A stretch of 64,000 bases of DNA, taken from the NCBI RefSeq assembly GCF_039555335.1, contig NC_092630.1:31212769-31276768 (forward strand). The letters run 5' to 3'. Below, one piece after another: positions 10,091 through 64,000 of this stretch (position 1 is its first letter; every line of letters begins with the position of its first letter). The DNA comes from Amphiura filiformis. Lineage: Eukaryota. The notes under the pieces are model-generated. The model worked only from the letters and a program-made list of their open reading frames with translations. It ran no database searches and was not told where the DNA came from. The position numbers and the translations under genes are program-made.

Positions 10091-12414
10091 ATACTCTATG
10101 CTACTGACAAATGCATCCTATATTTCTTATGATCAATTTTATAAAGTTACAAACACCAAATTGGTTATAACAGCTTGTCACCTTGAGATTGGCAGTGACG
10201 TCAAAATGTGTATGTGAGAGAGCATTGCAATTGTGCTGCCTTTACTAAATGACATGAGCATACATTATGCTGCGATTCCATGATTGGCATGCGCCTTTAA
10301 AACGTGCAGTGACATCTCTATCAATATGGAGGTGACGAGCAGTATAAACATTATCGCAGTCCTTGCAGAGACAAGTAAACAGGAAGTTGGTATGTAGTAA
10401 AAAGATCCAAGCATGCAATTAACTATGCCTTATGCCAACAATTACAAAGTGTATTTGGCGATTTTTTAGTTATTTTGCACAATTTTGTTCAAATTTCATT
10501 CTAAATCTGAATACGTAAGAAAACTAAGAGAAGTGAAAACATGCTTTATAATTTTATCACTGAAACATAGCTTTTTAGGTGATAAAATGTTTGTTTGGTT
10601 CTTTTTATTTTCTTTCCAGCATTGTCCTCTGCACAGATTAAGTTTTAAATTTTAAGAAATTCAAATCATTATTTTAGTTTCCTGATAATATGATATAGAA
10701 TCATTAAATAGAATGTTAAGAAGACTTTAAATGTAAAGTAATAACATGCAGGATTTAAATCAGAAAAATACTGTATGCACAAGTTGAATGCACTTTATAT
10801 TCTTTTGTCAAAAGCAACTTGATACCAGCTATCGCCTTAAGGCAGCTGTGTACTCTCAGACATGCATGTAGTAAAAGTGCCATAACTTTGTAATTATTCA
10901 CGCATAAGACATATAAAAGTATACATTTTATAAAGGCAATACATCAATGAATCTTAATATAAATACAGATTTGGTGTAAAAACAACAATTATGAAGAAAA
11001 TCACAAAAAAGTGAGTTTTTGGCCATTTTTGTTCGGTACATCATAACAAAAAAACACTCTTTCCAAAAATTTTGTTTTCTTTTTTTCTTAATCTTCAGAC
11101 ATCATTCCAAAAATGCTTTTTTTAGTTTTTGATATTGGCCTTATTTTTTAGATATTGACCATATAAGGCATCAAAATGAACTTTTAAAATTCACAAGCGC
11201 CTATTTGCACAAAATGATGCCTAAAATCGGAAATAGACCAAAATATAAAAAATGAGAAAACCATTTCTTAAGTCGATCATGCTTTTTATGATGAGCATAA
11301 TTGCTTACCTATAGATGCTGTATTTATTGAGTTATCGTGTACCTAAATCGTCATTTTACCGAGAAAATGAACATTGAAATAAAGGCCGTTGAAGTTTAAA
11401 GAGGTCACATTTTGCACTTTGATCGAAGCTCACAAGAGAATGCGGCAGTTCTTGTTTTTCTACCTTACATTACGTGAACATCGGGTAAATCCACAGCCCC
11501 TTGAGAAGTTTGGGCGAAATCTATTCATATCCTGGTGTTTAAATCGGGGGAAAGAACTTGAAAAAATTCACATTTTATCAGCTAAAAGCGGAGCCATTTG
11601 ACCGCAAGGTTTTATGAAATCAGTGCTTCCGTAGTGCTTCCATAAGATGCGCCGCAAGCATGCAGATAAGCGTTATGCGTATGCGTAAGCGTATCTGTGC
11701 GTTAACAAATTGCGCGTCTAAAGAACGCGATGAGTTGTTGCGCGCGTATACCCCGATGGTACAACAAAGATTTTCTTCCCTTTTAAATTGCAAAAACGAG
11801 TGAAATAGTGAAATAAAATCCATAAAATAGAGCATTTGGAGTTAACAAATCTGGATTTTCTTTCCTTGTATTTATAAAAAACATAACAAAGTAAATACAT
11901 TTCAAAAAAGCTCAATTTCGCGAAAGAAACAATGTCTAGAGTACACAGCCGCGTTAAAGCCAACAACATCAAATTCTGATTTATCAAAACTATTATTGAG
12001 TATTGCTAAGTGATATTCTGTTACCCTTCTAATATTTGATGCAATGCATTTGTGTTTTATAGTATACTGAAATACACATCTGAATAATACATATATAATA
12101 CTCACATTGTATAGAGTTTCTAGACACACAAGGAAAGACCCATGTCCTAACCTGAAAGAAATGGATGTAATAATATAGTTTTATTAAAAATGGTTTAGTT
12201 GCATTTTCTCATCACACAATATCTCTAATGCAGGGTGTACAACATAATTATCAGATCAGTTATTAAACACTGAAAATGTCCATATTCCTCCTCAATCTGA
12301 GCCTTCAAATATATGTTCTACTTTGAAGACTTAACTATCCTATAAATGTTGATCTTTTTCTGGATGTGTTTGGGAAAGTTGCATCCTACCTTCACCAATA
12401 GATTTGAAGGACAC

Positions 12415-29207: not shown

Positions 29208-29452
29208 AAATGAATACCTGAGTGGAAGAAGGGCCCAAGTCCATTTTACAAAAACGAGTTTTAAAAGATCTGTACCGTTGCCATTGCAACATATATCATT
29301 TCACAAGTATGTTATAATGTATCCTCATGTACCAGTACTAAAGGTGCCCTCAAGATGAAAACAATCTGTCTCTTAAAACTTGTTTTTTGTTAATACCTCA
29401 CAAAAAGTGTTGATGGAGTTGGGCCCTTCTTCCACTCAGGTATTCAAATGTA
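29208..29452. mobile_element. MITE (~245 bp; 31-bp TIR aatgaatacctgagtggaagaagggcccaag / rc)
   Basis: The TIRs are read directly. Confidence 0.7.
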
Positions 29453-49581: not shown

Positions 49582-49956
49582 GTGAGTCATTTGGTTTTTA
49601 TCGTATCGGAATCGGTACAAATCCTCTCAATTGCCGATCAATTGAACCGTTAAAACTGACTGTAGAGTGCATCCTAATTAATTACTCAGGAAGTGTAGGA
49701 CTTGTCATCATGGTTATTTTTCGTGTAGTACAGATCGGGATTTGTATCGGCTGGTTCAAGGAGAAATTATCGGCAATCGGCGCATTCAGAACTTGGGGTG
49801 ATCGGTTCTTCACTAAATATATTTCTGATGTTAGTAGAGATGTTATATATTTCCATTAAGAAACTATTTCCTATATTCCTATTATCCATGATTCATATAA
49901 AGTGTACTTCCCAGACCATTTCATCATTCATTCAATGCTTGTGTTTTTCCTTACAG

Positions 49957-50089
49957 GAATTAAAGCTAATATTTCCCAATGCCCAGAGGTTAAATCGTGG
50001 TAACTATGAAATGAATCAACTGGTGCAAGCTTGTAGAGCTAATGATGTCACCGATCTTATCATTGTACATGAACATAGAGGAAATCCAG
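49957..50089 (+). CDS. IMP4: IMP4 coding exon ([44 protein letters not shown])
   Basis: It matches human ELKLVFPGAQRMNRGRHEVGALVRACKANGVTDLLVVHEHRGTP. The acceptor is tgtttttccttacag| and the donor is CAG|gttagt. The boundaries are anchored to ORF-track entry 49798..50094. Confidence 0.9.
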
Positions 50090-51144
50090 GTTAGTTGTGT
50101 CAACCAAATCGTCAGTCCTGAAATGCAGATTTTCATTGTATTTTTAGAACGAACAGAAATCCGAAGAGGTCATAATCAATTTTAAAAAGAACAAGCACAG
50201 GCGCCACACCTAGACGTTGATCCACAAGCCTCAGCACATTTCACAGTCATGGGTGATGTTGCCCTGTATGGGACCATGACAACCCCTCTCTGACATTAGA
50301 AAATCCACCAGTACGCGCCTCACTGCGTGTCTAGGTGCTACGCGCCTCGATCCTAGCCGAGGAACTAGGGCTAGTTCTAATCTTGCTGTGCCCCTACAGA
50401 TCCTTAATTTGAGGGCTTTATAATTAGGCCCAAAAAAAAAAATTGTTTGTTTGTCCACGTCCGACCGACCGTGTACCCTGGTCCCGACCGTGTCTCTTTT
50501 TTTTCTTTTTGATTTTTGATTTTTTTTTGGCATCGATGGGACATCGTATAAAACAGTGGTTAGTATAAATTTAAAGAAAGAAAATGTAAAGAAAATTAAC
50601 AGTATAACATGCAGAACCATCTCAAGAGTTAAACCAGTAAAGTGCTGTGTGTTTTGACTTATTTACCAGTCTTCAAATTAAAAAAAAAAAAAAAAAAAAA
50701 AATCCAACCTACCGTCTACCGACCCAACTTTTTCATAAGCCTCTATGGACAAACAAACAATTTTTTTTTTTTTTGGCCTTGGCTTCCTTCAATAAAGTTG
50801 ACTATATGCACCATGTGACTACCAGACCTGGATTAAAACTGAAAGAAATTGTTCTGCAGGATGTGTAAATGAACTTACTGAAATACTACACTACAAGATT
50901 CCTATTGCGGCCACCTTACTTGCATAGTACCAATGCTGCTACTGCACAGCAGTGGTACTATCCCGGGGTACTATACTGGTACCTCCCTGTTATTGCACAG
51001 TACCATGCCAAGTATCATTGGCGACAATGTAACTGTGCAGGTGGCTGCAATAGGAATCTGGCTCACTGTCTTATTGTTAACATTTTAAATCCAAAGTTAT
51101 ATCATATCTTTATCTATATGCTTCCTTTTATTGTTGAATTTCAG

Positions 51145-51299
51145 ATGCTTTGCAAGTTTGTCATCTGCCGTATGGTCCCACAGCATACTTTACATTAATG
51201 AACACAGTAATGCGACATGACATTCCTAATATGGGCACAATGTCAGAAGCATATCCACATCTAATCTTTCACAATTTCAAGTCAAAACTTGGAGAAAGG
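51145..51299 (+). CDS. IMP4: IMP4 coding exon ((D)ALQVCHLPYGPTAYFTLMNTVMRHDIPNMGTMSEAYPHLIFHNFKSKLGER)
   Basis: It matches human GLIVSHLPFGPTAYFTLCNVVMRHDIPDLGTMSEAKPHLITHGFSSRLGKR. The acceptor is gaatttcag| and the donor is AGG|gtaaga. The boundaries are anchored to ORF-track entry 51150..51335. Confidence 0.9.
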
Positions 51300-51529
51300 G
51301 TAAGATTGGTATTTATAAACAGTAAATTGTATTGAATAGTGTAGTAGTAGGAAAAACAATTGCAATCTGTTGTTTATAATGCCATACCAAAAAAGCGTAC
51401 ATGCTGCTCACATGATTGGATTTGAATTGATCATTAGCATATGAGATTGCATTATACTGTGTGGAATGACTTAGTTGTCAGCTAGTTATTTTATTTAGTT
51501 ACTTATGAATGTACACTGTCAGTGATTAA

Positions 51530-51880
51530 GGGGGTATTACACCCCTGCCCAATTTTGTGCCTATTTTTGCATTTTCCTCAAAAATTATAGCGCATTGGTG
51601 ACAAGTAAGATATGTACATTATAGGGGCAAGGACTACAACTATTGCACTGGAAATTTTATTTCAGCACAGACAACAGTTGTGGAGTTACAGTCAAAAATG
51701 AGGGAAAACCAATATTTGATCAATAAATCAATAACTACTTGCCTTGAGTTGCTGAATTTTCAGTGCAGTTGTTGTAGTCCTTGCCACTATAATATACATA
51801 TCTTACTTGTCACCAATGCGCTATTATTCTTGAGAAAAATGCAAAAATAGGCACAATTTGGCCAGGGGTGTAGTACCCCC
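51530..51880. mobile_element. TTAA-flanked MITE copy 3, in IMP4 intron 5
   Basis: TTAA is present at 51526-51529 and 51881-51884. Its interior is about 90% identical to copies 1 and 4. Confidence 0.8.
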
Positions 51881-52059
51881 TTAAAGCTCTTATAAAGTCA
51901 ATTAAAAATAGGATTGTGAATGTGAACAAGCAGACACTAGCTAAAAATCATTGTGTATGGTGAAATAGATAACACAGGATATCTTCCTTCTATAATTCTC
52001 TAGTTTACATCACAACTAATATTGTACGCAATTTTGATTGTATCATTGTTTATTTGCAG

Positions 52060-52154
52060 GTAATGAACATATTAAAGTATTTGTTTCCTGTACCCAAAGA
52101 TGAGAGTAAAAGAGTGATGACATTTGCCAACATGGATGATGTTATCTCATTTAG
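52060..52154 (+). CDS. IMP4: IMP4 coding exon (VMNILKYLFPVPKDESKRVMTFANMDDVISF + AG)
   Basis: It matches human VSDILRYLFPVPKDDSHRVITFANQDDYISFR. The acceptor is tttatttgcag| and the donor is TTTAG|gtaagt. Confidence 0.85.
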
Positions 52155-53276
52155 GTAAGTCATATAGCCTTAGTACCGTACTGACGTGAGTATAGTCCCA
52201 CCTTCGAGTAAAGTCCCACCCCAAATTTTCGAAAAATCTAAGAAATTAAAAAAAAAAATTTTCGGCTTTGGAGTGTCCCAGGACCTAGACCTAAATGCTA
52301 GGATCATTCATGGTTGATTTAAAAAATAATAATTGAATTTTGCATGGTGTTTTGTGTTTTTAATATGAATTTGAATGCATTTTGATATCATTAATAGAGT
52401 ATGACAAACAAAGTATCAATTTTCATATTAAAAACACAAAACACCATGCAAAATTCAAATTTTTTTTTAGGTCAACCATGAATGATCCTAGCATTTAGGT
52501 CTAGGTCCAGGGACACTACAAAACCTTTAAAAAAATTTAATTTTTTTTTTTTTTTGAAATTCGAGTATAGTCCCACCCCCCCAATTTTGAAAAATGTTCA
52601 CCCAAAACGGGGTGGGACTATACTCAGGCATCAGTACGGTAATTGCTAACATAAATTCAAGAGCTTAGAACAGCAACTGGTTTTATCCAGTTGGATTTGG
52701 TCTGTCATATTAGCATGAACGTGAACCAGTGGTGTATTTGGTGGGATTTGTTTTCCATAAAGAATCAAATATTTGAAGTCAAGACCACCATTTTGGATTT
52801 ATCCTTTGTCACTCAACAGATTTAGCCTAGCACAGAAATCTTCAATTTAAGGATTGTACAACTTTATTCCATTAGCTGTTTATAAATTCCTCAATGGAAT
52901 CTATACAATAGTCTAACTCATGAACATATTACACCAAGCATACACCAAATTTTGGACATAGCTAGTTCTGATTTTAAGCCCTTAATTTGTTCCCTGAAAA
53001 GATACACGTAGATGGTGTTTACTAGTTTCGAAGCCAGTAAAAAATAAAAAAACAAGCAGGTTGAGTAGTTAAAATGTGCACAAATTGACTGCAAATGTTT
53101 TTTGTTTGTTTTGGTTTTGGTTTTTTTCTATCATGTTAAATTAGTGTGTTGGTTCCGTTATTGCATCTTGAGCTGAATCAACAGATTATTTTGAAAAATA
53201 AATGCTATTCTGAACCACACATGCCTGTCAATAATGGTTTTGTAACTCATGAGCGTTCGTACTTTATTTTCTTTAG

Positions 53277-53350
53277 ACACCATGTTTACAAGAAAGTTGA
53301 TCATAAAAATATTGAGCTGTCAGAAGTTGGACCAAGGTTTGAAATGAAAT
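53277..53350 (+). CDS. IMP4: IMP4 coding exon ((R)HHVYKKVDHKNIELSEVGPRFEMK + T)
   Basis: It matches human RHHVYKKTDHRNVELTEVGPRFELK. The acceptor is ttttctttag| and the donor is AAAT|gtaagt. The boundaries are anchored to ORF-track entry 53146..53382. Confidence 0.9.
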
Positions 53351-53384
53351 GTAAGTCACATGTTCATCATTACTTTTGTTAGGG

Positions 53385-53875
53385 GCTGTGCAATAATTAT
53401 GTGTACCCCAGGAAAGTGGTCTGCCAAAAATCACTCCCCCCCCCCCTTTTGACAGTGCCAAAGATTTTGCCCTCCCCCCCCTTTGACTTGCCAAAAAACC
53501 TTTCCCCCCCCCCCTTTTGACATGTCAAAAAATCTTTTCCCCCCCTTTTGCACACTAAGATTTATGGGAACCCGAATTTAAAACCTGAAATTGTCTTATC
53601 GTATTTAATGCGAGCGCAGCGAGCAGGAAATATTGCAGATTTGAACGTGTTCCTAATGATTTTCTATGCATTTTTAGGTTGTAATATAGAAACGGTGCCC
53701 AAAATATCTGTCCCAAAAATCGCTTGCCCTCCCCTTTCGACCTGCCAAAAATCGCTTGCCCCCCCCCCCCCTTTTGACCTGCCAAAAAATCTTTGCCCCT
53801 CCCTTTTGGGCTGCCAAAAATCTTGCCACCCCTTTTAATTCACCACCCCGGGGTACACATAATTATTGCACCACC
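53385..53875. mobile_element. MITE (~490 bp; TIR gggctgtgcaataattatgtgtaccccagg / rc) filled with about 32-bp tandem units (tgccaaaaatcgcttgccccc…cttttgacc, ×8). It begins about 35 bp after the IMP4 exon-7 donor.
   Basis: TIRs are at 53388-53412 and 53848-53872. Related unit copies are at 4575-4640, 5270-5330 and 24420-24440. Confidence 0.65.
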
Positions 53876-54356
53876 CCTTAATTCCATTCATTGATTTTGT
53901 GTTTTATTGATGGACCTAAAATTGCAAACAACTTAATGTATGTGATGAAATATAAAGCAACAAGTGTTTATCATATATGTGATGCCACATGGATGGATGA
54001 GTTTATGAATGGTTGGTTGACTGTTGAGCAGAAGAAATATCAATCTAAACACAGCAGCCAATGGACAGGCTGGAAGGGATGTTTGTTTGGCTTATAATTG
54101 GGGGAAAATGATACTCATAACATCGTGTATTGATATAGAATGGGGTGGATGCAGTTTGGCGCAGCACTTAACACTAGTTGTGTGTTGCATAATACATGAA
54201 TTGGGCTCGCTAATGTTAATTTATGCAAGCTCCACAAAAAAATGAATCATTTTCACCAATTATAAGCCACACCGACTATAGAACATATTGACTTGTGATA
54301 TTATAAAGCTTTATTACAAGGTACACGTGTATAAGCAAATAATAAGCTAATTTTAA

Positions 54357-54710
54357 GGGGGTACTACACCCCTGCCCGATTTTGTGCCTATTTTTGCATT
54401 TTTCTCAAAAATTATAGCGTATTGAGGACAAGTAAGATATGTGTATTATAGGGGCAAGGACTACAATTACTGCACTGGAAATTTTATTTCAGCACAGATA
54501 ACAGTTGTGGAGTTACAGTCAAAAATGAGGGAAAACCAATATTTGATCAATAAATCAATAACTACTAGCTTTGAGTTGCTGAATTTTCAGTACAGTAGTT
54601 GTAGTCCTTGCCCCTATAATATATACATATCTCACCTGTCACCAATGTGCTATAATTTTTGAGAAAAATGCAAAAATAGGCACAAAATTGGCCAGGGGTG
54701 TAGTACCCCC
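54357..54710. mobile_element. TTAA-flanked MITE copy 4, in IMP4 intron 7 (right flank mutated to ATTA)
   Basis: TTAA is at 54353-54356, and the right side reads cccccATTAag. ORF-track entries 33603..33818(-) and 54441..54662(+) lie entirely inside these elements and are spurious. Confidence 0.75.
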
Positions 54711-55297
54711 ATTAAGATTAGTGATACTGATTTTCCACTCTACCATCCAAATGCAGTAGTGATAGGTCAAGTTGGTAGGGTGGTAGATCTTGATAATAAA
54801 CTCACACTCATTCTTACAATTGATAATTAATGTTAGAGCTCAATGCATACATAAAGTTGTGGGGCTGTTAATCTGTAATTGTTATTTCATTTTATTTTTT
54901 GCAAAATGCACTAGTATTTTATTAAGTAACACAATAAGTGTTTAAAATTTCAGCAGATGGTGTTGGACTGTTGGTGTAGTGTAATTAGTAGTATATACAT
55001 CCCAATTTGACTTGACCATTTTCCAAGTGATTAGGTTTCTCTGTTATCTGGCTGAGTTGCCACCAAAGGAAACACATGTTTTAACAGCCATGTCATCTTG
55101 TTTGTATGCAGGAGGCAGTTGGAAGCCATACCTTTGTTGTTTTGTTACTGTTTAATGCTGATATAGTATCTGTTCACCTTATTACCCATTCAGGACTTAT
55201 TATGCTAATTGTAGAGGTTTTATTTATAAATCTCAGCTGCTGGTTTTTCACTCATATGGTTCAGTTGTTATAGCATTTCTTTTCCTTTTTCCCACAG

Positions 55298-55413
55298 TAT
55301 ATGAGATCAAACTAGGCACCATAGAGAATGCAGCCACAGCAGATGTAGAATGGGTGCATAGACCATACATGAATACAGCCAAGAAACGAAGACATCTAGC
55401 AGCACAAGAATGA
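55298..55413 (+). CDS. IMP4: IMP4 terminal coding exon including the stop ((L)YEIKLGTIENAATADVEWVHRPYMNTAKKRRHLAAQE*)
   Basis: It matches the human C-terminus LYMIRLGTLEQEATADVEWRWHPYTNTARKRVFLSTE. The acceptor is tttttcccacag| and the stop is TGA at 55411-55413. The summed CDS is about 870 nt, or about 290 aa, which matches the 291-aa human protein. Confidence 0.88.
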
Positions 55414-60727: not shown

Positions 60728-61915
60728 TTACAAAATAATGCAAGTTTTCGATTGCGGAGTTGGTGACGATGTTTGATGTCTTGCTGAGGGAGTTCCACGT
60801 ACTTCACCATTTTGTCCACTACGTTCGCTACTACTGCGATTTCTTCTCACCTTCTGCAAGGTTTCTTCGTCAAGAAAACCTTCCAGCTGCTGCACTTCTT
60901 GTGAAACCTCGCGGAGTTCCGTTTCCAATTTAGCTACCCTCTCATCCTTTGCCTGATCATCTTTGACAAATCTTTTCAGTCTCAACTGCAAGTCTTTCAC
61001 TTTGCGATCACTCTCCTCTTTCTCTTCAAGAATTTCTGTAACCTTTTCACGCAGATATTTCTCCGTGTCTTGTTGCTGAGAAAGTTCGTGAGCAAGATAA
61101 TCTGCTTGCACTCGAAAACCATCTCGCTGCCGTGCCTTTTCATTTACGTCACTGACAGAAGATGATTTGGATAACGATCTTTCGGCTTTCTTTGAATCAT
61201 CTTCCCTATTTTCCAATTTTGTGCGTAATTCAGCATTTTGCTCACGAAGAGAATCTAACTGCAACTCTGCAGCTAAGAATTTTGTGTGCAAGGTTCCATA
61301 TGTCTCTCGGAGTTGCTCTTCAGTAAGAACAGAGATGTCGTATTCATCATTACCATTTTCCTTAGCGCATTCCACAGTTGCAGGAATGTCTTGATCATTT
61401 GGAGAATCCGATGTGACATTATTGTTAGGTGGCTCAGTTTTACTTTCCCCGTTTACCTCAGGCTCATTAGGCGACTCTGTTTTCTCGTCGCCATTCTTGT
61501 TTTCAACACCATTTTGAATGTCATTTTCAGTTGTTGGAGGTGCTTCGGATTTGTTTTCTGAAGTATCGTCGGTCATCTTGTTTGATTCAACACCCTCGTT
61601 GGCAGAACTATCAACTTGTTCATCTTGTTTTTCAGAGTTGTCTTGCGTATCTTCTGTTCTATTTTCTTCATTCGTTACATCATGCACTTCGGCAACATCG
61701 CCATTAGATTCTGTGTCACCGTTCACTTTAGGTTTGTCCTCATCGTGATCTTTCGTCTCTTGAACTGCAGAATGATCATGCGTCGTCCCGTCTTCCATCA
61801 CCGTTACCTCTGTACGATCTTCAGGAGCTGTCATCACCTTTTCCGCCGAGTCTTCTTGATTTGGAGGCGATGTTTCCTCAGCTAAAGCTTCTGCAGGTGG
61901 CTCTGCCATTTTCAT
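60728..61915 (-). CDS. Intronless 395-aa ORF: acidic, Ser/Asp/Glu-rich N-terminal half, then a coiled coil of about 150 aa (…LQLDSLREQNAELRTKLE…KDLQLRLKRF…KLETELREVSQEVQQLEGFL…), then a C-terminal CaaX box (…QSKTCIIL*). Family not assigned.
   Basis: This is by far the longest ORF in the window. It starts with a real ATG (ATGAAAATGG, good Kozak context) immediately preceded by an in-frame TGA. The four C-terminal residues C-I-I-L fit the CaaX consensus, with a terminal Leu implying geranylgeranylation. An acceptor-like ttatttacag lies about 65 nt upstream of the ATG, suggesting a spliced 5'UTR. Confidence 0.7.
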   Translation of the reverse strand: MKMAEPPAEALAEETSPPNQEDSAEKVMTAPEDRTEVTVMEDGTTHDHSAVQETKDHDEDKPKVNGDTESNGDVAEVHDVTNEENRTEDTQDNSEKQDEQVDSSANEGVESNKMTDDTSENKSEAPPTTENDIQNGVENKNGDEKTESPNEPEVNGESKTEPPNNNVTSDSPNDQDIPATVECAKENGNDEYDISVLTEEQLRETYGTLHTKFLAAELQLDSLREQNAELRTKLENREDDSKKAERSLSKSSSVSDVNEKARQRDGFRVQADYLAHELSQQQDTEKYLREKVTEILEEKEESDRKVKDLQLRLKRFVKDDQAKDERVAKLETELREVSQEVQQLEGFLDEETLQKVRRNRSSSERSGQNGEVRGTPSARHQTSSPTPQSKTCIIL

Positions 61916-62404
61916 GATTCAGTCGCGGTATGGTAAACGTTTAATTTTAGAATCAATCAGAATTGGTTTGCGTAGCTAGGAATACCTGTAAATAACATAA
62001 ATCAAGAGGTTGACACACGATTAAGATACTCAAAAAGATAACGTGACACAATTAAACAGTAGAGTCATGCTCCTAGCAACACAGAGAACAAATGTTTGCC
62101 AACAAGGTAGAGACGGTACATAAACTTATTTGCTTCTCTATTTAATTTAAGTTGATTTAAACAAACACAAGTTTCTGTACTTTAATTCTGTATGGTCTTA
62201 ATGGTAATAACATCTGACTTGTTATAAAAACAGGGAAAATCTGTTCAAACTGACCAGCGGGGAACCAAAGGATGGATCCAAAAGAATACGACAGTGTCAC
62301 ACTAACAATGGATAAAATTAAAAAACTGGGAAAATATGACCCAACATCCAATGGGGGGGGGGAGTAACACAGAACATATAACATGTATAAACAAAGTTAT
62401 AACG

Positions 62405-62800
62405 ATCCAACGTTTCGAAAAGACAAACCCGCTTTTTCTTTTCAAGGGATAAAATAAGAGACCTGCTCTCAATATAGTGGAGACATAAGAGACCTGCTCT
62501 CAATATAGTGGAAACATAAGAGACCTGCTCTCAATATAGTGGAGACATAAGAGACCTGCTCTCAATATAGTGGAGACATTTGAGGCCTGCTCTCAATATA
62601 GTGGAGACCAGCTAAGAGCAAAAAACAGCCGACTAAGTCAGACATTAAAAACTGCGAAAATATGACACAACATCCAATGCTAAGAACTGGTCTCCACTAT
62701 ATTGAGAACAGGTCTCTTAAATCTCCACTATATTGAGAGCAGGTCTTTTATTTTATCCCTTGAAAAAGAAAAAGTTTTGTCTTTTCGAGACGTCGGGTTT
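62405..62800. mobile_element. Foldback element containing a 31-bp tandem array (agagacctgctctcaatatagtggagacata ×5 at about 62455-62610, plus 2 inverted units at about 62690-62750); about 70-bp TIRs
   Basis: The TIR cgtttcgaaaagacaaacccgctttttcttttcaagggataaaataagagacctgctctcaatatagtggag is matched by its reverse complement at 62690-62795. The element lies about 500 bp upstream of the CaaX-ORF start. Confidence 0.7.
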
Positions 62801-64000
62801 TTAACTTTGTTGACCAGTTTGAAACTTCCTTTTGATATCAGGCTTGTCAGCACGTATAAATCACTTCAATCCCGAGGTTAATTTTTAATTCAGTCAATCA
62901 GTCTTTGTTAGGATATTTATCTTCTCAAATATATTCTTTCAATTACAAAATAAAATCATCAAGACCTTGTAAAATTTGATAATGATATCTAACTTCTAAG
63001 TATAAATCAATTGGGAGAATTTTGGCAATGGCATCAATAACTTTGCTTATTTTATGAGTCTGAAAACTTGTGAAGTACAATAAACAAGAAGTTTAATTAC
63101 AATTGAGTAACTGTTTCGGTGCAATTAATACAGTGATGCGTTAACTTCATGGTATCTTACAATTAATTAAATATATGTGGTGTTATCTTGCATTACATGG
63201 CTATCAATGTCCTTTTCCGTCACACCAAATAAAGGATTTGATTATCGCTTGATAAATTTAAGTATTGTATCGCTCTAAATACCTTACTGATAAACAAGAC
63301 CAAGCTGGCGTGACACGAGATGGTTTACTGGTGTTCAATTTTTGTTTGGACCAAACATTGACTACGTAACCATGGCAACCAAGTAGGTGGTAATAGAATT
63401 GAAAGCCTCAAAGTGTTTCATGCCAATTTATTATGACGCGTCGAAACGAAATGTTTTTGCGACATACTTAACTATTAGAAGTAGAAGCTCAATATTCTTA
63501 AAACATTTTTAATCATTGATTGGAATATCATGTCCAAAAATATTACTTCAACTAGGCCTATACATTTATTTTACAATTCTAGTCCTAACAGTAAAATATA
63601 TTGAATGTAAATTTGTTTTTGGTATTAGTGACTTAAGTTTTAGTTAGAATAACACACGTAAGCGTATTACCTTTAAGCTGCATCAGCGACCAGAAATATC
63701 TGCCAATTAGCTCGGCAATGTGACCCAAGTTTACAACTTTTCCATGAAGTTACCACTACATATTTTGAGCATAATTAGACAAGAATTATGTTCAAATTGT
63801 GTCAAATGTCAGCCTTATATCCACGTAAGCGTAGAAGTGTACATATGTATAGGTTGTACTTTATCGTCTGAGGGGGTCATCCTGGTAAAACATGTGTATG
63901 CCCTCTCGAACCTCAGTAACGAAATGTTTACAGAACTTTTTGGTGCATTTAATTTTTATCTAGTTTAACTTGAAACTTTTTACTTCACTGTTTTGCTATC

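What the first reader, a model, noticed from the sequence alone, without database searches (positions are those of the whole stretch)
60728..61915. Unassigned intronless gene: acidic disordered N-terminus, coiled coil, and a geranylgeranyl-type CaaX box (CIIL)
This is the largest ORF in the window. It has real ATG starts, an upstream in-frame stop, and a composition typical of a genuine protein. The N-terminal roughly 200 aa is low-complexity and E/D/S/T/N-rich, followed by about 150 aa of heptad-rich sequence, and it ends in …TPQSKTCIIL. I cannot place it in a known family. Prenylated coiled-coil proteins such as lamins, CENP-E/F, Spindly and paralemmin have different domain order or length. 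It is a single exon while the other three genes are multi-exon, so it could be a retrogene or lineage-specific.
Basis: partly seen in the sequence, partly recalled or inferred. Interest (0 to 1): 0.6.

Follow-up and report, generated by a model that had tools for sequence, protein, structure and literature searches.

The report
Undescribed conserved prenylated coiled-coil protein gene
This is a real, complete gene for a lipid-anchored (CaaX-box) coiled-coil protein from an undescribed family found from placozoans and corals to echinoderms and amphioxus; its tail motif and nearby DNA motifs hint, without proving, that it works at cilia.

Summary
The ORF at 60728-61915 (-) is exactly as described: 395 aa, by far the largest ORF in the window, with an acidic disordered N-terminal half, about 160 aa of heptad coiled coil, and a C-terminal CIIL. 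It is a genuine gene: the C-terminal half has dN/dS of about 0.08. It is not lineage-specific. A profile search found 67 relatives in echinoderms, hemichordates, amphioxus, an annelid, a nemertean, cnidarians and Trichoplax. None is characterised, none matches a Pfam family, and I found no vertebrate or ecdysozoan member.

The CaaX cysteine is invariant. Ser at -3 occurs in 85 of 87 distinct tails, and a beta-branched or hydrophobic residue at -1 in about 92%. That is the published signature of high-affinity PDE6delta cargo such as INPP5E, GRK1 and RPGR, which is sorted to cilia. RFX X-box motifs are about 11-fold enriched around family loci, and one lies in a conserved block 1.45 kb upstream here.

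The coding sequence is a single exon in most deuterostomes, preceded by a conserved 5'UTR intron, so it is not a recent retrogene.

Best reading: a geranylgeranylated coiled-coil scaffold on a membrane. A ciliary location is plausible (about 45%) but untested.

The parts
60728..61915 (-). Complete coding sequence, 395 aa plus the TAA stop at 60730-60728, in a single coding exon.
   Evidence: ORF list. Orthologues share the same start, MKMAEPP. dN/dS is about 0.08 for the C-terminal half and about 0.42 for the N-terminal half against the L004 orthologue.
61340..61915 (-). N-terminal acidic, low-complexity, presumably disordered region (residues 1-192, net charge -41).
   Evidence: Composition. 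Length and sequence vary freely among relatives while the acidic character is kept. Constraint is relaxed, omega about 0.42.
61172..61321 (-). Coiled-coil helix 1 (residues 199-248).
   Evidence: AF2 helix with pLDDT 80-94. 73% of a/d positions are hydrophobic against 11% elsewhere.
60875..61156 (-). Coiled-coil helix 2 (residues 254-347). It follows a Ser-rich linker, SKSSSVSD.
   Evidence: AF2 helix with pLDDT 90-97. A single heptad register runs over all 94 residues. This is the most conserved part of the family.
60938..60997 (-). Family signature motif KDLQLRLKRFVKDDQAKDER (residues 307-326), a candidate partner-binding surface.
   Evidence: Invariant columns are D308 Q310 L311 L313 K314 R315 F316 K318 D319 D320 K323 D324. 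R and K positions are still invariant in the broad alignment. Invariant D320 and K323 sit at core a/d positions and invariant L311 at the exposed f position.
60821..60868 (-). Short helix 3 (residues 350-365). It is followed by a roughly 25-aa disordered linker to the lipid anchor.
   Evidence: AF2 secondary structure; pLDDT is below 50 for the tail.
60731..60751 (-). C-terminal lipidation and sorting signal S-K-T-C-I-I-L. It is a CaaX box with X = Leu (geranylgeranyl type), Ser at -3 and Thr at -1.
   Evidence: Sequence. Among 87 distinct family tails: Cys 87/87; Ser at -3 85/87; -1 is V/T/I/F/L/M in 80/87; a2 is Ile in 74/87; X is L 56, M 13, Q 10.
61986..62000 (-). Putative 3' splice site (pyrimidine tract plus AG at 61987-61986) of a 5'UTR intron. 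Exon 2 would start at 61985, 70 nt before the ATG.
   Evidence: Sequence. An aligned CAG is present in L001. Analogous acceptors occur in all echinoderm loci. The L007 versus L005 junction in a relative falls exactly at the equivalent AG.
62070..62106 (-). Conserved non-coding block about 90-120 nt upstream of the acceptor. It holds a forkhead-core GCAAACA (62099-62093) and an RFX half-site GTTGCTAGG (62080-62072).
   Evidence: blastn against L004 and three-species alignment. GTTGCTAGG lies at -165 to -190 from the ATG in the window, L004 and L005, and L001 has GTTGCTAAG at -195. The motif identities come from my own knowledge of RFX and FOX consensus sites.
63099..63409 (-). Distal conserved non-coding block, a candidate promoter and start of non-coding exon 1.
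   Evidence: 68-77% identity to L001 4125-4413 and L004 260-481, at a comparable distance upstream of the orthologous ATGs. It is not repeated elsewhere and has no Rfam match.
63366..63379 (+). Palindromic RFX X-box GTAACCATGGCAAC (gene strand GTTGCCATGGTTAC).
   Evidence: It is the only perfect GTHNYYATRRNAAC match in the 64-kb window. It is conserved as GTTGTCATGGTTAC in L004 and GTTACCATGGAAAC in L001. X-boxes are enriched around family loci: 13 observed against 1.15 expected.

Best explanation
SHOWN. The ORF is a complete, selectively constrained gene. It belongs to an undescribed protein family found widely across non-vertebrate, non-ecdysozoan animals, from Placozoa to amphioxus. The shared architecture is a variable acidic disordered N-terminus, about 160 aa of heptad coiled coil carrying the invariant motif DLQxRLKRFxKDDxxKD, a flexible linker of about 25-30 aa, and an invariant tail S-[KR]-[VTI]-C-a-I-[L/M/Q].

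INFERRED, step 1 (high confidence, from the established rules for CaaX processing). The Cys of CIIL is geranylgeranylated by GGTase-I, the -IIL tripeptide is removed, and the Cys is methylated. The coiled coil pairs two or more chains, so the assembly carries at least two lipid anchors on long flexible tethers. It sits on a membrane with its acidic tails projecting into the cytoplasm. The conserved exposed face of the DLQLRLKRF-KDD motif recruits a conserved partner.

INFERRED, step 2 (moderate confidence). Ser at -3 is nearly invariant and -1 is beta-branched or hydrophobic. This matches the experimentally defined determinant of high-affinity binding to the prenyl chaperone PDE6delta, whose cargo is released by ARL3 inside cilia. 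X-box (RFX) motifs, the usual cis-element of ciliary genes, are conserved and enriched at this locus and at orthologous loci. The protein is therefore most likely extracted from endomembranes by PDE6delta and delivered to the ciliary or periciliary membrane of ciliated cells, under RFX control.
For: Gene reality: ORF statistics; omega about 0.08 for the C-terminal half; 11 homologues from a single-sequence search and 67 from a profile search of 1.84e9 representatives.

Taxon spread: Anneissia, Apostichopus, Acanthaster, Patiria, Asterias, Strongylocentrotus, Ptychodera, Saccoglossus, Branchiostoma, Capitella, Tubulanus, Acropora, Montipora, Clytia, Hydra, Trichoplax.

Architecture: alignments, AF2, heptads.

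Tail statistics: Cys 87/87; Ser at -3 85/87; -1 is V44 T21 I6 F5 L2 M2; X is L56 M13 Q10.

PDE6delta rule. Ser at -3 hydrogen-bonds Glu88 and a hydrophobic -1 residue sits in a hydrophobic pocket. Swapping these two residues reverses the affinity about 60-fold and delocalises INPP5E from cilia; GRK1 (Ser at -3, Met at -1) also binds at nanomolar affinity (PMC5512577). Geranylgeranylated RPGR needs Ser809 at -3 and its prenyl Cys for PDE6D binding and ciliary targeting (PMC5051646). Ser at -3 is reported as conserved in ciliary cargo, and geranylgeranyl binds deeper in the pocket (PMC9857354).

RFX evidence. The only perfect X-box in the window lies in a block conserved in three species. Perfect X-boxes lie upstream of the orthologous ATG in L001 (-897, -1932), Apostichopus (-95, -1231), Saccoglossus (-1886) and S. 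purpuratus (-6536). A conserved GTTGCTAGG half-site lies at -165 to -195 in four related contigs. In total there are 13 perfect sites in 139 kb of family loci against 1.15 +/- 1.06 in Markov-1 simulations, with a maximum of 6 in 200 runs.
Against: There is no direct evidence of prenylation, dimerisation, PDE6delta binding, localisation or expression for any family member, and no paper mentions the family.

The published work itself shows that Ser at -3 with high PDE6delta affinity is neither sufficient nor strictly necessary for ciliary localisation. GFP carrying only the last RPGR residues is dispersed. FAM219A has Ser at -3 but was not seen in cilia, and NIM1K and UBL3 S>K mutants still reach cilia.

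In the window protein -1 is Thr, not Ile or Met.

No X-box was found within the fetched flanks of Acanthaster or amphioxus, and Anneissia has only a near-match. Some counted sites may serve neighbouring genes. The three ophiuroid-like copies of the distal X-box count as three sites but represent one evolutionary event.

Core ciliary genes are normally retained in vertebrates, yet I found no vertebrate homologue.

Foldseek and PDB sequence searches give no functional analogue.
Confidence: 0.5

Rival explanations
1. The molecule is the same prenylated coiled-coil scaffold, but it is not ciliary. It would be a general endomembrane or cortical membrane adaptor that works like paralemmin or a small golgin-type tether. 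The conserved Ser at -3 would then serve another purpose, such as phosphoregulated membrane release or recognition by a different prenyl chaperone, and the X-boxes would be incidental or belong to neighbouring genes.
For: The CaaX box has no second membrane signal: there is no extra Cys and no polybasic run in the last 30 aa of the window protein. From my own knowledge of Ras-type targeting, such proteins default to endomembranes. X-boxes are missing in Acanthaster and amphioxus. No vertebrate orthologue was found, which is unusual for ciliary genes. Ser at -3 is not sufficient for ciliary localisation.
Against: This reading does not explain why Ser at -3 and a beta-branched or hydrophobic -1 are held almost invariant from Trichoplax to amphioxus while -4 to -6 vary freely. 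It does not explain the 11-fold X-box excess, or the conservation of the X-box within a three-species footprint.
Confidence: 0.35
2. It is a nuclear-envelope CaaX coiled-coil protein, working like B-type lamins or Drosophila Kugelkern, anchored to the inner nuclear membrane.
For: It combines a coiled coil with a C-terminal CaaX box, and there is a short basic patch, KVRRNR, at residues 355-360.
Against: There is no intermediate-filament rod or lamin-tail domain (Pfam). The basic patch is not conserved in relatives. X = Leu predicts geranylgeranyl, whereas lamins and Kugelkern are farnesylated (my own knowledge). The bulk of the protein is strongly acidic.
Confidence: 0.05
3. It is a recent retrogene, a lineage-specific orphan, a TE-derived ORF, or the 3' fragment of a larger gene. 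These are the first reader's alternatives.
For: The CDS is a single exon among multi-exon neighbours. Coral relatives have an intron inside the coiled-coil region, so coding introns were lost at some point.
Against: The single-exon CDS is shared by a crinoid, an asteroid, a holothuroid and amphioxus. A conserved 5'UTR intron is present. Microsynteny with the Brix-domain gene is conserved. Purifying selection is strong. There are no TE domains. The start is conserved and an in-frame stop lies upstream.
Confidence: 0.03

Closest known systems
High-affinity prenylated cargo of PDE6delta/ARL3 (INPP5E, GRK1, the constitutive RPGR ex1-19 isoform, NIM1K, UBL3)
   Same: C-terminal CaaX box with Ser at -3 and a hydrophobic or beta-branched residue at -1. 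Both farnesyl-type and geranylgeranyl-type X residues occur, as in this cargo class. RPGR is likewise geranylgeranylated (CaaL type) with an essential Ser at -3.
   Different: There is no sequence or domain homology with any of them: no phosphatase, kinase, RCC1 or ubiquitin-like domain. The body of this protein is only an acidic disordered region plus a coiled coil. Binding to PDE6delta and ciliary localisation are untested.
Paralemmin family (PALM, PALM2, PALM3; Pfam PF03285)
   Same: Both are small, largely disordered or coiled-coil proteins anchored to membranes by a C-terminal CaaX box, and they probably work similarly as lipid-anchored scaffolds.
   Different: There is no Pfam Paralemmin hit for the window protein or for 26 relatives. 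From my own knowledge, the order is reversed: paralemmin has an N-terminal coiled coil and a long C-terminal region. Paralemmin also has extra palmitoylatable Cys residues next to a farnesyl-type CaaX; here there is a single Cys, mostly geranylgeranyl-type, and a conserved Ser at -3.
Lamins and other nuclear CaaX coiled-coil proteins (B-type lamins, Drosophila Kugelkern)
   Same: Coiled coil plus a C-terminal CaaX box.
   Different: There is no IF rod or lamin-tail domain, no conserved NLS, and the CaaX is geranylgeranyl-type; the protein is much shorter.
Spindly and CENP-E/CENP-F (farnesylated kinetochore coiled-coil proteins)
   Same: Coiled coil with a C-terminal prenylation box.
   Different: There is no sequence similarity. 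From my own knowledge, those proteins are far larger, have farnesyl-type CaaX boxes ending in Q, and lack the Ser at -3 signature and the acidic N-terminal region.

Membership tests
CaaX-prenylated proteins (GGTase-I substrates) | Cys at the fourth position from the C-terminus, followed by two mostly aliphatic residues and X = Leu/Phe. | tested here: met
   The protein ends in CIIL. Cys is invariant in 87/87 distinct family tails, a2 is Ile in 74/87 and X is Leu in 56/87.
CaaX-prenylated proteins (GGTase-I substrates) | Actual covalent isoprenylation of the Cys. | not testable with these tools
   This needs metabolic labelling or mass spectrometry, and a prenylation predictor such as PrePS is not available here.
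High-affinity PDE6delta cargo (functional class) | Ser at -3 relative to the prenylated Cys. | tested here: met
   Ser389 in the window protein. Ser in 85/87 tails and Thr in 2/87. The rule is taken from PMC5512577, PMC5051646 and PMC9857354.
High-affinity PDE6delta cargo (functional class) | Hydrophobic residue at -1 (Ile in INPP5E, Met in GRK1). | tested here: inconclusive
   The window protein has Thr. Across the family -1 is V44 T21 I6 F5 L2 M2 S6 A1. Val/Ile/Phe/Leu/Met fit the rule. Thr is beta-branched but polar, and its effect on affinity has not been measured.
High-affinity PDE6delta cargo (functional class) | Nanomolar binding to PDE6delta, ARL3-specific release, and ciliary enrichment. 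| not testable with these tools
   This requires peptide-binding and localisation experiments.
RFX (X-box) regulon, the ciliary gene battery | An X-box (GTHNYYATRRNAAC or GTNRCCNNRGYAAC) near the promoter, conserved in orthologues. | tested here: met
   There is a perfect site at 63366-63379 within a three-species conserved block. Perfect sites lie upstream in Apostichopus, Saccoglossus and S. purpuratus, while none is found in Acanthaster or amphioxus. The count is 13 against 1.15 expected. The position of the TSS relative to the site is only inferred.
RFX (X-box) regulon, the ciliary gene battery | RFX occupancy, and RFX-dependent expression specific to ciliated cells. | not testable with these tools
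   No expression or ChIP data are available here.
Paralemmin (PF03285) | Match to the Paralemmin domain profile. | tested here: not met
   There is no hit at E <= 10 for the full protein, and Paralemmin is not among the 25 families most often matched at E <= 1 for 26 relatives.
Paralemmin (PF03285) | Additional Cys residues next to the CaaX Cys for palmitoylation (my own knowledge of PALM). | tested here: not met
   There is a single Cys in the last 40 residues of the window protein. Positions -1 and -2 are never Cys in 87 tails.
Lamins / intermediate filaments | IF rod domain (PF00038) and lamin tail domain (PF00932). | tested here: not met
   Neither is hit in Pfam, and no PDB sequence match to lamins is found.
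Processed retrogene | Intronless copy with a multi-exon parent, no conserved introns, new genomic neighbourhood, restricted phylogenetic distribution. | tested here: not met
   A conserved 5'UTR intron is present. Synteny with the Brix-domain gene is conserved. The single-exon CDS is shared from crinoids to amphioxus. Whether a parental paralogue exists in this genome could not be tested from one window.

The most novel reading that the evidence does not exclude
This gene would represent an ancient, previously unrecognised family of prenylated coiled-coil cargo of the PDE6delta/ARL3 ciliary lipid-protein shuttle, transcribed under RFX control in ciliated cells. The family would have been present in the last common ancestor of placozoans, cnidarians and bilaterians, and lost or diverged beyond recognition in vertebrates and ecdysozoans. 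Its invariant DLQxRLKRFxKDD surface would recruit a conserved partner to the ciliary membrane.
Probability: 0.4. Interest if true: 0.6.

Novelty: new variant of a known kind. Interest (0 to 1): 0.45.

Why it matters
Few non-GTPase prenylated proteins are known. Known PDE6delta/ARL3 cargo is almost entirely vertebrate-defined (INPP5E, RPGR, GRK1, PDE6, NIM1K, UBL3). This family is conserved from Trichoplax to amphioxus and keeps the exact -3/-1 sorting signature while switching freely between farnesyl-type and geranylgeranyl-type X residues. That makes it a natural evolutionary test of the published 'affinity sorting' rule.

The family would also be a tractable new marker or scaffold of the ciliary or another membrane in the classic invertebrate embryo systems: sea urchin, sea star, Nematostella and amphioxus. 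More practically, it gives a name and a diagnostic motif to a set of proteins now carrying misleading automatic names such as 'enolase-phosphatase E1-like', 'kinX', 'myosin heavy chain' and 'golgin A6-like'.

If the ciliary inference is wrong, this is simply one more conserved hypothetical membrane-anchored coiled-coil protein.

Tried and rejected
1. Pfam on the full protein and on 26 relatives gave only sub-threshold coiled-coil noise such as Tropomyosin, ERM_helical, CENPH and DUF724. I rejected these as homology.

2. A PDB sequence profile search and Foldseek against the PDB gave nothing significant. The AFDB50 library was not available.

3. A word-indexed homology search with the broad alignment returned only short exon-sized fragments, probably cnidarian, and no named vertebrate. 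The same tool with the amphioxus C-terminal half returned nothing. 'No vertebrate homologue' therefore means not found, not proven absent.

4. FAM219A, a vertebrate PDE6D interactor with Ser at -3, was considered as a possible orthologue. I dropped it because I obtained no sequence evidence for it: its Pfam family is not among the hits, and the paper gives no sign of a coiled-coil architecture.

5. Literature searches by accession or locus names and by motif strings found no paper. The sea-urchin, anemone and choanoflagellate ciliome paper could not be mapped to this protein from its text.

6. I tested whether the distal conserved block is a repeat, a TE or an RNA gene. It is single-copy in the window and the loci and has no Rfam hit.

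7. Homology between L007 exon 1 and the window upstream region is not significant (score 42 against a null of 34 +/- 4). It only weakly resembles the second half of the conserved block in L004. The TSS position therefore remains an inference.

8. A metagenome scan for more loci gave 10 coral-type contigs that cover mostly the last exon. Only two, which are related to each other, carry an intronic X-box, so this is uninformative about promoters.
Full report
OBSERVATION. The ORF at 60728-61915 on the minus strand exists exactly as described. It is 395 aa with an ATG start, and an in-frame TGA lies two codons upstream (61921-61919). It is the largest ORF in the window by far; the next are 169 and 150 aa, and neither has a Pfam hit. 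With the window's stop-codon frequency, about 3e-7 open frames of this length are expected by chance. Residues 1-192 are E/D/N/T/S/P-rich with net charge -41. The protein ends ...TPQSKTCIIL.

An AlphaFold2 model of the last 203 residues, built with 11 homologues, has mean pLDDT 81. It shows helices at residues 199-248, 254-347 and 350-365, then a low-confidence tail of about 30 residues. Heptad analysis shows 69-73% hydrophobic residues at a/d positions against 11-18% elsewhere. Helix 2 keeps a single register over its 94 residues.

IS IT A REAL GENE? Yes. A single-sequence search found 11 homologues. Three unnamed metagenome-derived proteins are 47-61% identical and share the N-terminus MKMAEPP. 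The others are predicted proteins of a crinoid (Anneissia), a sea cucumber (Apostichopus), sea stars (Acanthaster, Patiria, Asterias), a sea urchin (S. purpuratus) and a coral (Montipora). The other four echinoderm classes are represented by named species that lack the MKMAEPP start, so the window probably comes from a brittle star; this is an inference only.

Codon-level comparison with the closest relative (L004) gives dN 0.11 and dS 1.33 (omega about 0.08) for the C-terminal half, and omega about 0.42 for the acidic N-terminal half. That is the expected pattern for a constrained structured region next to a fast-evolving disordered one.

THE FAMILY. A profile of the C-terminal region (A2) was searched with HMMER against 1.84 billion representative proteins. 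It gave 67 hits at E <= 1e-3 and 35 at E <= 1e-10. Cluster look-ups put names on many of them:
- hemichordates Ptychodera (XP_070558664) and Saccoglossus (XP_006814795)
- amphioxus (CAH1266166)
- the annelid Capitella (ELU08355) and the nemertean Tubulanus (XP_074645658)
- the cnidarians Acropora, Clytia and Hydra
- the placozoan Trichoplax (XP_002111415)

All of these are 'uncharacterized' or carry automatic names driven by low complexity, such as enolase-phosphatase E1-like, kinX, myosin heavy chain, golgin A6-like and DNA ligase 1-like. No vertebrate, arthropod or nematode protein appeared, although the remaining search tools were too limited to prove absence. No Pfam family matches the window protein or 26 diverse members. 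There is no PDB sequence or fold match, and no paper mentions these accessions or motifs.

WHAT IS CONSERVED. Two things stand out.

First, there is a block in helix 2...ERKVKDLQLRLKRFxKDDQAKDERI..., with invariant D308, Q310, L311, L313, K314, R315, F316, K318, D319, D320, K323 and D324. In the heptad register, D320 and K323 occupy core a/d positions and L311 the exposed f position. This is more than is needed for dimerisation and looks like a partner-binding surface.

Second, there is the extreme C-terminus. Among 87 distinct decamers the Cys is invariant. Position a2 is Ile in 74. X is Leu in 56, Met in 13 and Gln in 10. Position -3 is Ser in 85 and Thr in 2. Position -2 is Lys or Arg in 64. 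Position -1 is V/T/I/F/L/M in 80. Positions -4 to -6 vary freely. Three proteins that appear to lack the box simply read through the stop after ...C-a-a-X.

MECHANISM. Under the established CaaX rules, CIIL is a GGTase-I substrate; this step is inferred, not tested. Relatives switch between geranylgeranyl-type (L) and farnesyl-type (M, Q) X residues while holding S-x-[V/T/I]-C fixed. This suggests that what is read is the prenyl-Cys together with the -1 and -3 side chains, not the lipid type.

That is precisely the published recognition mode of the prenyl chaperone PDE6delta. In crystal structures Ser at -3 hydrogen-bonds Glu88 and a hydrophobic -1 residue packs into a hydrophobic environment. 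Swapping these two residues between INPP5E (S, I) and Rheb (K, S) reverses the affinity (Kd about 700 nM for the INPP5E swap mutant against 12 nM for the Rheb swap mutant) and delocalises INPP5E from cilia. GRK1 (S, M) binds at 7 nM and transducin-gamma (K, G) at 6.6 uM (PMC5512577). Geranylgeranylated RPGR needs Ser809 at -3 and its prenyl Cys for PDE6D binding and ciliary targeting (PMC5051646). Later proteomics found Ser at -3 in about half of prenylated PDE6D interactors and described it as conserved in ciliary cargo (PMC9857354).

The same papers show that the signal is not sufficient. GFP carrying only the RPGR tail is dispersed, and FAM219A is not seen in cilia. It is also not strictly necessary, since S>K mutants of NIM1K and UBL3 still enter cilia. 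In the window protein -1 is Thr, which has not been tested.

CIS-REGULATORY LEAD. I compared the flanks with related contigs: L004, L001, and L005-L007. This revealed two conserved non-coding blocks upstream of the ATG.

The distal block is at 63099-63409, and it lies 0.8-1.5 kb upstream of the ATG in all three species. It contains the only perfect X-box (GTHNYYATRRNAAC) in the 64-kb window, at 63366-63379. The site is conserved as GTTGTCATGGTTAC and GTTACCATGGAAAC in the relatives. It is followed by a conserved palindrome, TGTTTGGTCCAAACA.

The proximal block is at 62070-62106. It holds a forkhead-core GCAAACA and the RFX half-site GTTGCTAGG. That half-site is found at -165 to -195 in four related contigs.

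Perfect X-boxes also lie upstream of the ATG in Apostichopus (-95, -1231), Saccoglossus (-1886) and S. purpuratus (-6536). Anneissia has a near-match at -484. Acanthaster and amphioxus have none in the fetched flanks. Over ten family loci (139 kb) there are 13 perfect sites against 1.15 +/- 1.06 in composition-matched simulations, with a maximum of 6 in 200. As caveats, one orthologous site is counted three times, and some sites may serve neighbouring genes.

From my own knowledge of the RFX/DAF-19 literature, X-boxes are the signature element of ciliary genes in animals. Together with the tail signature this gives two independent, indirect pointers to cilia. I put the ciliary reading at about 45%.

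GENE STRUCTURE AND THE RETROGENE IDEA. The CDS is a single exon here and also in these loci:
- the metagenomic relative L001
- Acanthaster
- Anneissia
- Apostichopus
- amphioxus

Saccoglossus splits only the first two codons, S. purpuratus has one intron of about 430 nt, and coral-type contigs have a 1.3-3.1 kb intron in the coiled coil. Every echinoderm locus has a pyrimidine tract plus AG 8-73 nt before the ATG; in the window this is ttatttacAG, with the AG at 61987-61986.

In the P0003 species, the Logan contig L007 is identical to genomic L005/L006 for the 72 nt before the ATG. It then diverges exactly at the genomic ...CTTCTTGCAG| acceptor and continues into at least 200 nt of unrelated sequence. 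This is the pattern of a spliced mRNA with a non-coding first exon and an intron longer than 635 nt. I could not verify that this run is RNA.

A Brix-domain gene lies convergently downstream in the window (exons about 45.2-55.4 kb, + strand). The same arrangement is found in Acanthaster, S. purpuratus and Apostichopus. The gene is therefore ancient and in a stable genomic context. It is not a recent retrogene, a TE product or a gene fragment.

COMPARISON WITH KNOWN SYSTEMS. The protein probably works like other lipid-anchored coiled-coil scaffolds such as paralemmin. By its tail it also resembles the PDE6delta/ARL3 cargo class. It is a member of none of the named families, because every tested defining domain is absent (see the membership table). 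I classify it as a new variant of a known kind: an undescribed family built on a familiar principle.

VERDICT. Interest is moderate at 0.45. The family is a well-defined, evolutionarily deep, uncharacterised one with a specific and testable functional hypothesis, but everything beyond the sequence features is inference.

Noticed in passing
window 62400-62803: A foldback or MITE-like element lies inside the putative 5'UTR intron. It has five tandem 31-nt repeats (62420-62605) with inverted copies at 62690-62772 (83-nt arms, 92% complementary) and outer inverted arms at 62400-62440 and 62763-62803.
   Followed up: no
window ~45224-55407 (+): This is a multi-exon Brix-domain gene (290-aa product in relatives), convergent with the CaaX gene. 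The same tail-to-tail arrangement is found in Acanthaster (L002), S. purpuratus (L008) and Apostichopus (L009), which gives conserved microsynteny across echinoderm classes.
   Followed up: partly
window 63853-63912: A second, more distal conserved non-coding block shows 79% identity over 62 nt to L001 3434-3495. It includes the shared motifs GGGC.TACACATGTT and ACCCCCTCAG. Its function is unknown; it could be an enhancer or belong to an upstream neighbour beyond the window edge.
   Followed up: partly
window 29277-29290: A near-perfect palindromic X-box-like site, GTTGCCATTGCAAC, has one mismatch to the consensus and lies far from the CaaX gene. It may mark another RFX-regulated gene in the window.
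   Followed up: no
L001 7209-7494 and L005 2165-2180: Extra X-box-like sites lie downstream of the orthologous genes. L001 has three within 300 nt (GTTGCTATAGCAAC, GTTGCCATAGCAAT, GTTACCGTAGCAAC) about 0.9-1.2 kb past the stop. L005 has GTTACCATGGTAAA 20 nt past the stop. No counterpart is seen in the window's 3' flank.
   Followed up: partly
L020 4257 and L021 236 (coral-type metagenome contigs): An identical X-box, GTTGCTATGGTAAC, lies about 750 nt upstream of the last coding exon, inside the intron that splits the coiled-coil region in these cnidarian-type genes.
   Followed up: partly
L008 (S. purpuratus) 11219-11650: The sea-urchin orthologue is interrupted by an intron of about 430 nt after residue 406, whereas other echinoderm classes have an uninterrupted CDS. 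I did not check whether this is a true intron or an insertion.
   Followed up: no
window residues 249-266 (about 61118-61171, -): A Ser-rich linker followed by EKA[KR]Q[RT]DG (SLSKSSSVSDVNEKARQRDG) sits between helices 1 and 2. It is conserved in ophiuroid-like, crinoid and hemichordate proteins and partly in amphioxus. It is a candidate phosphorylation cluster.
   Followed up: no
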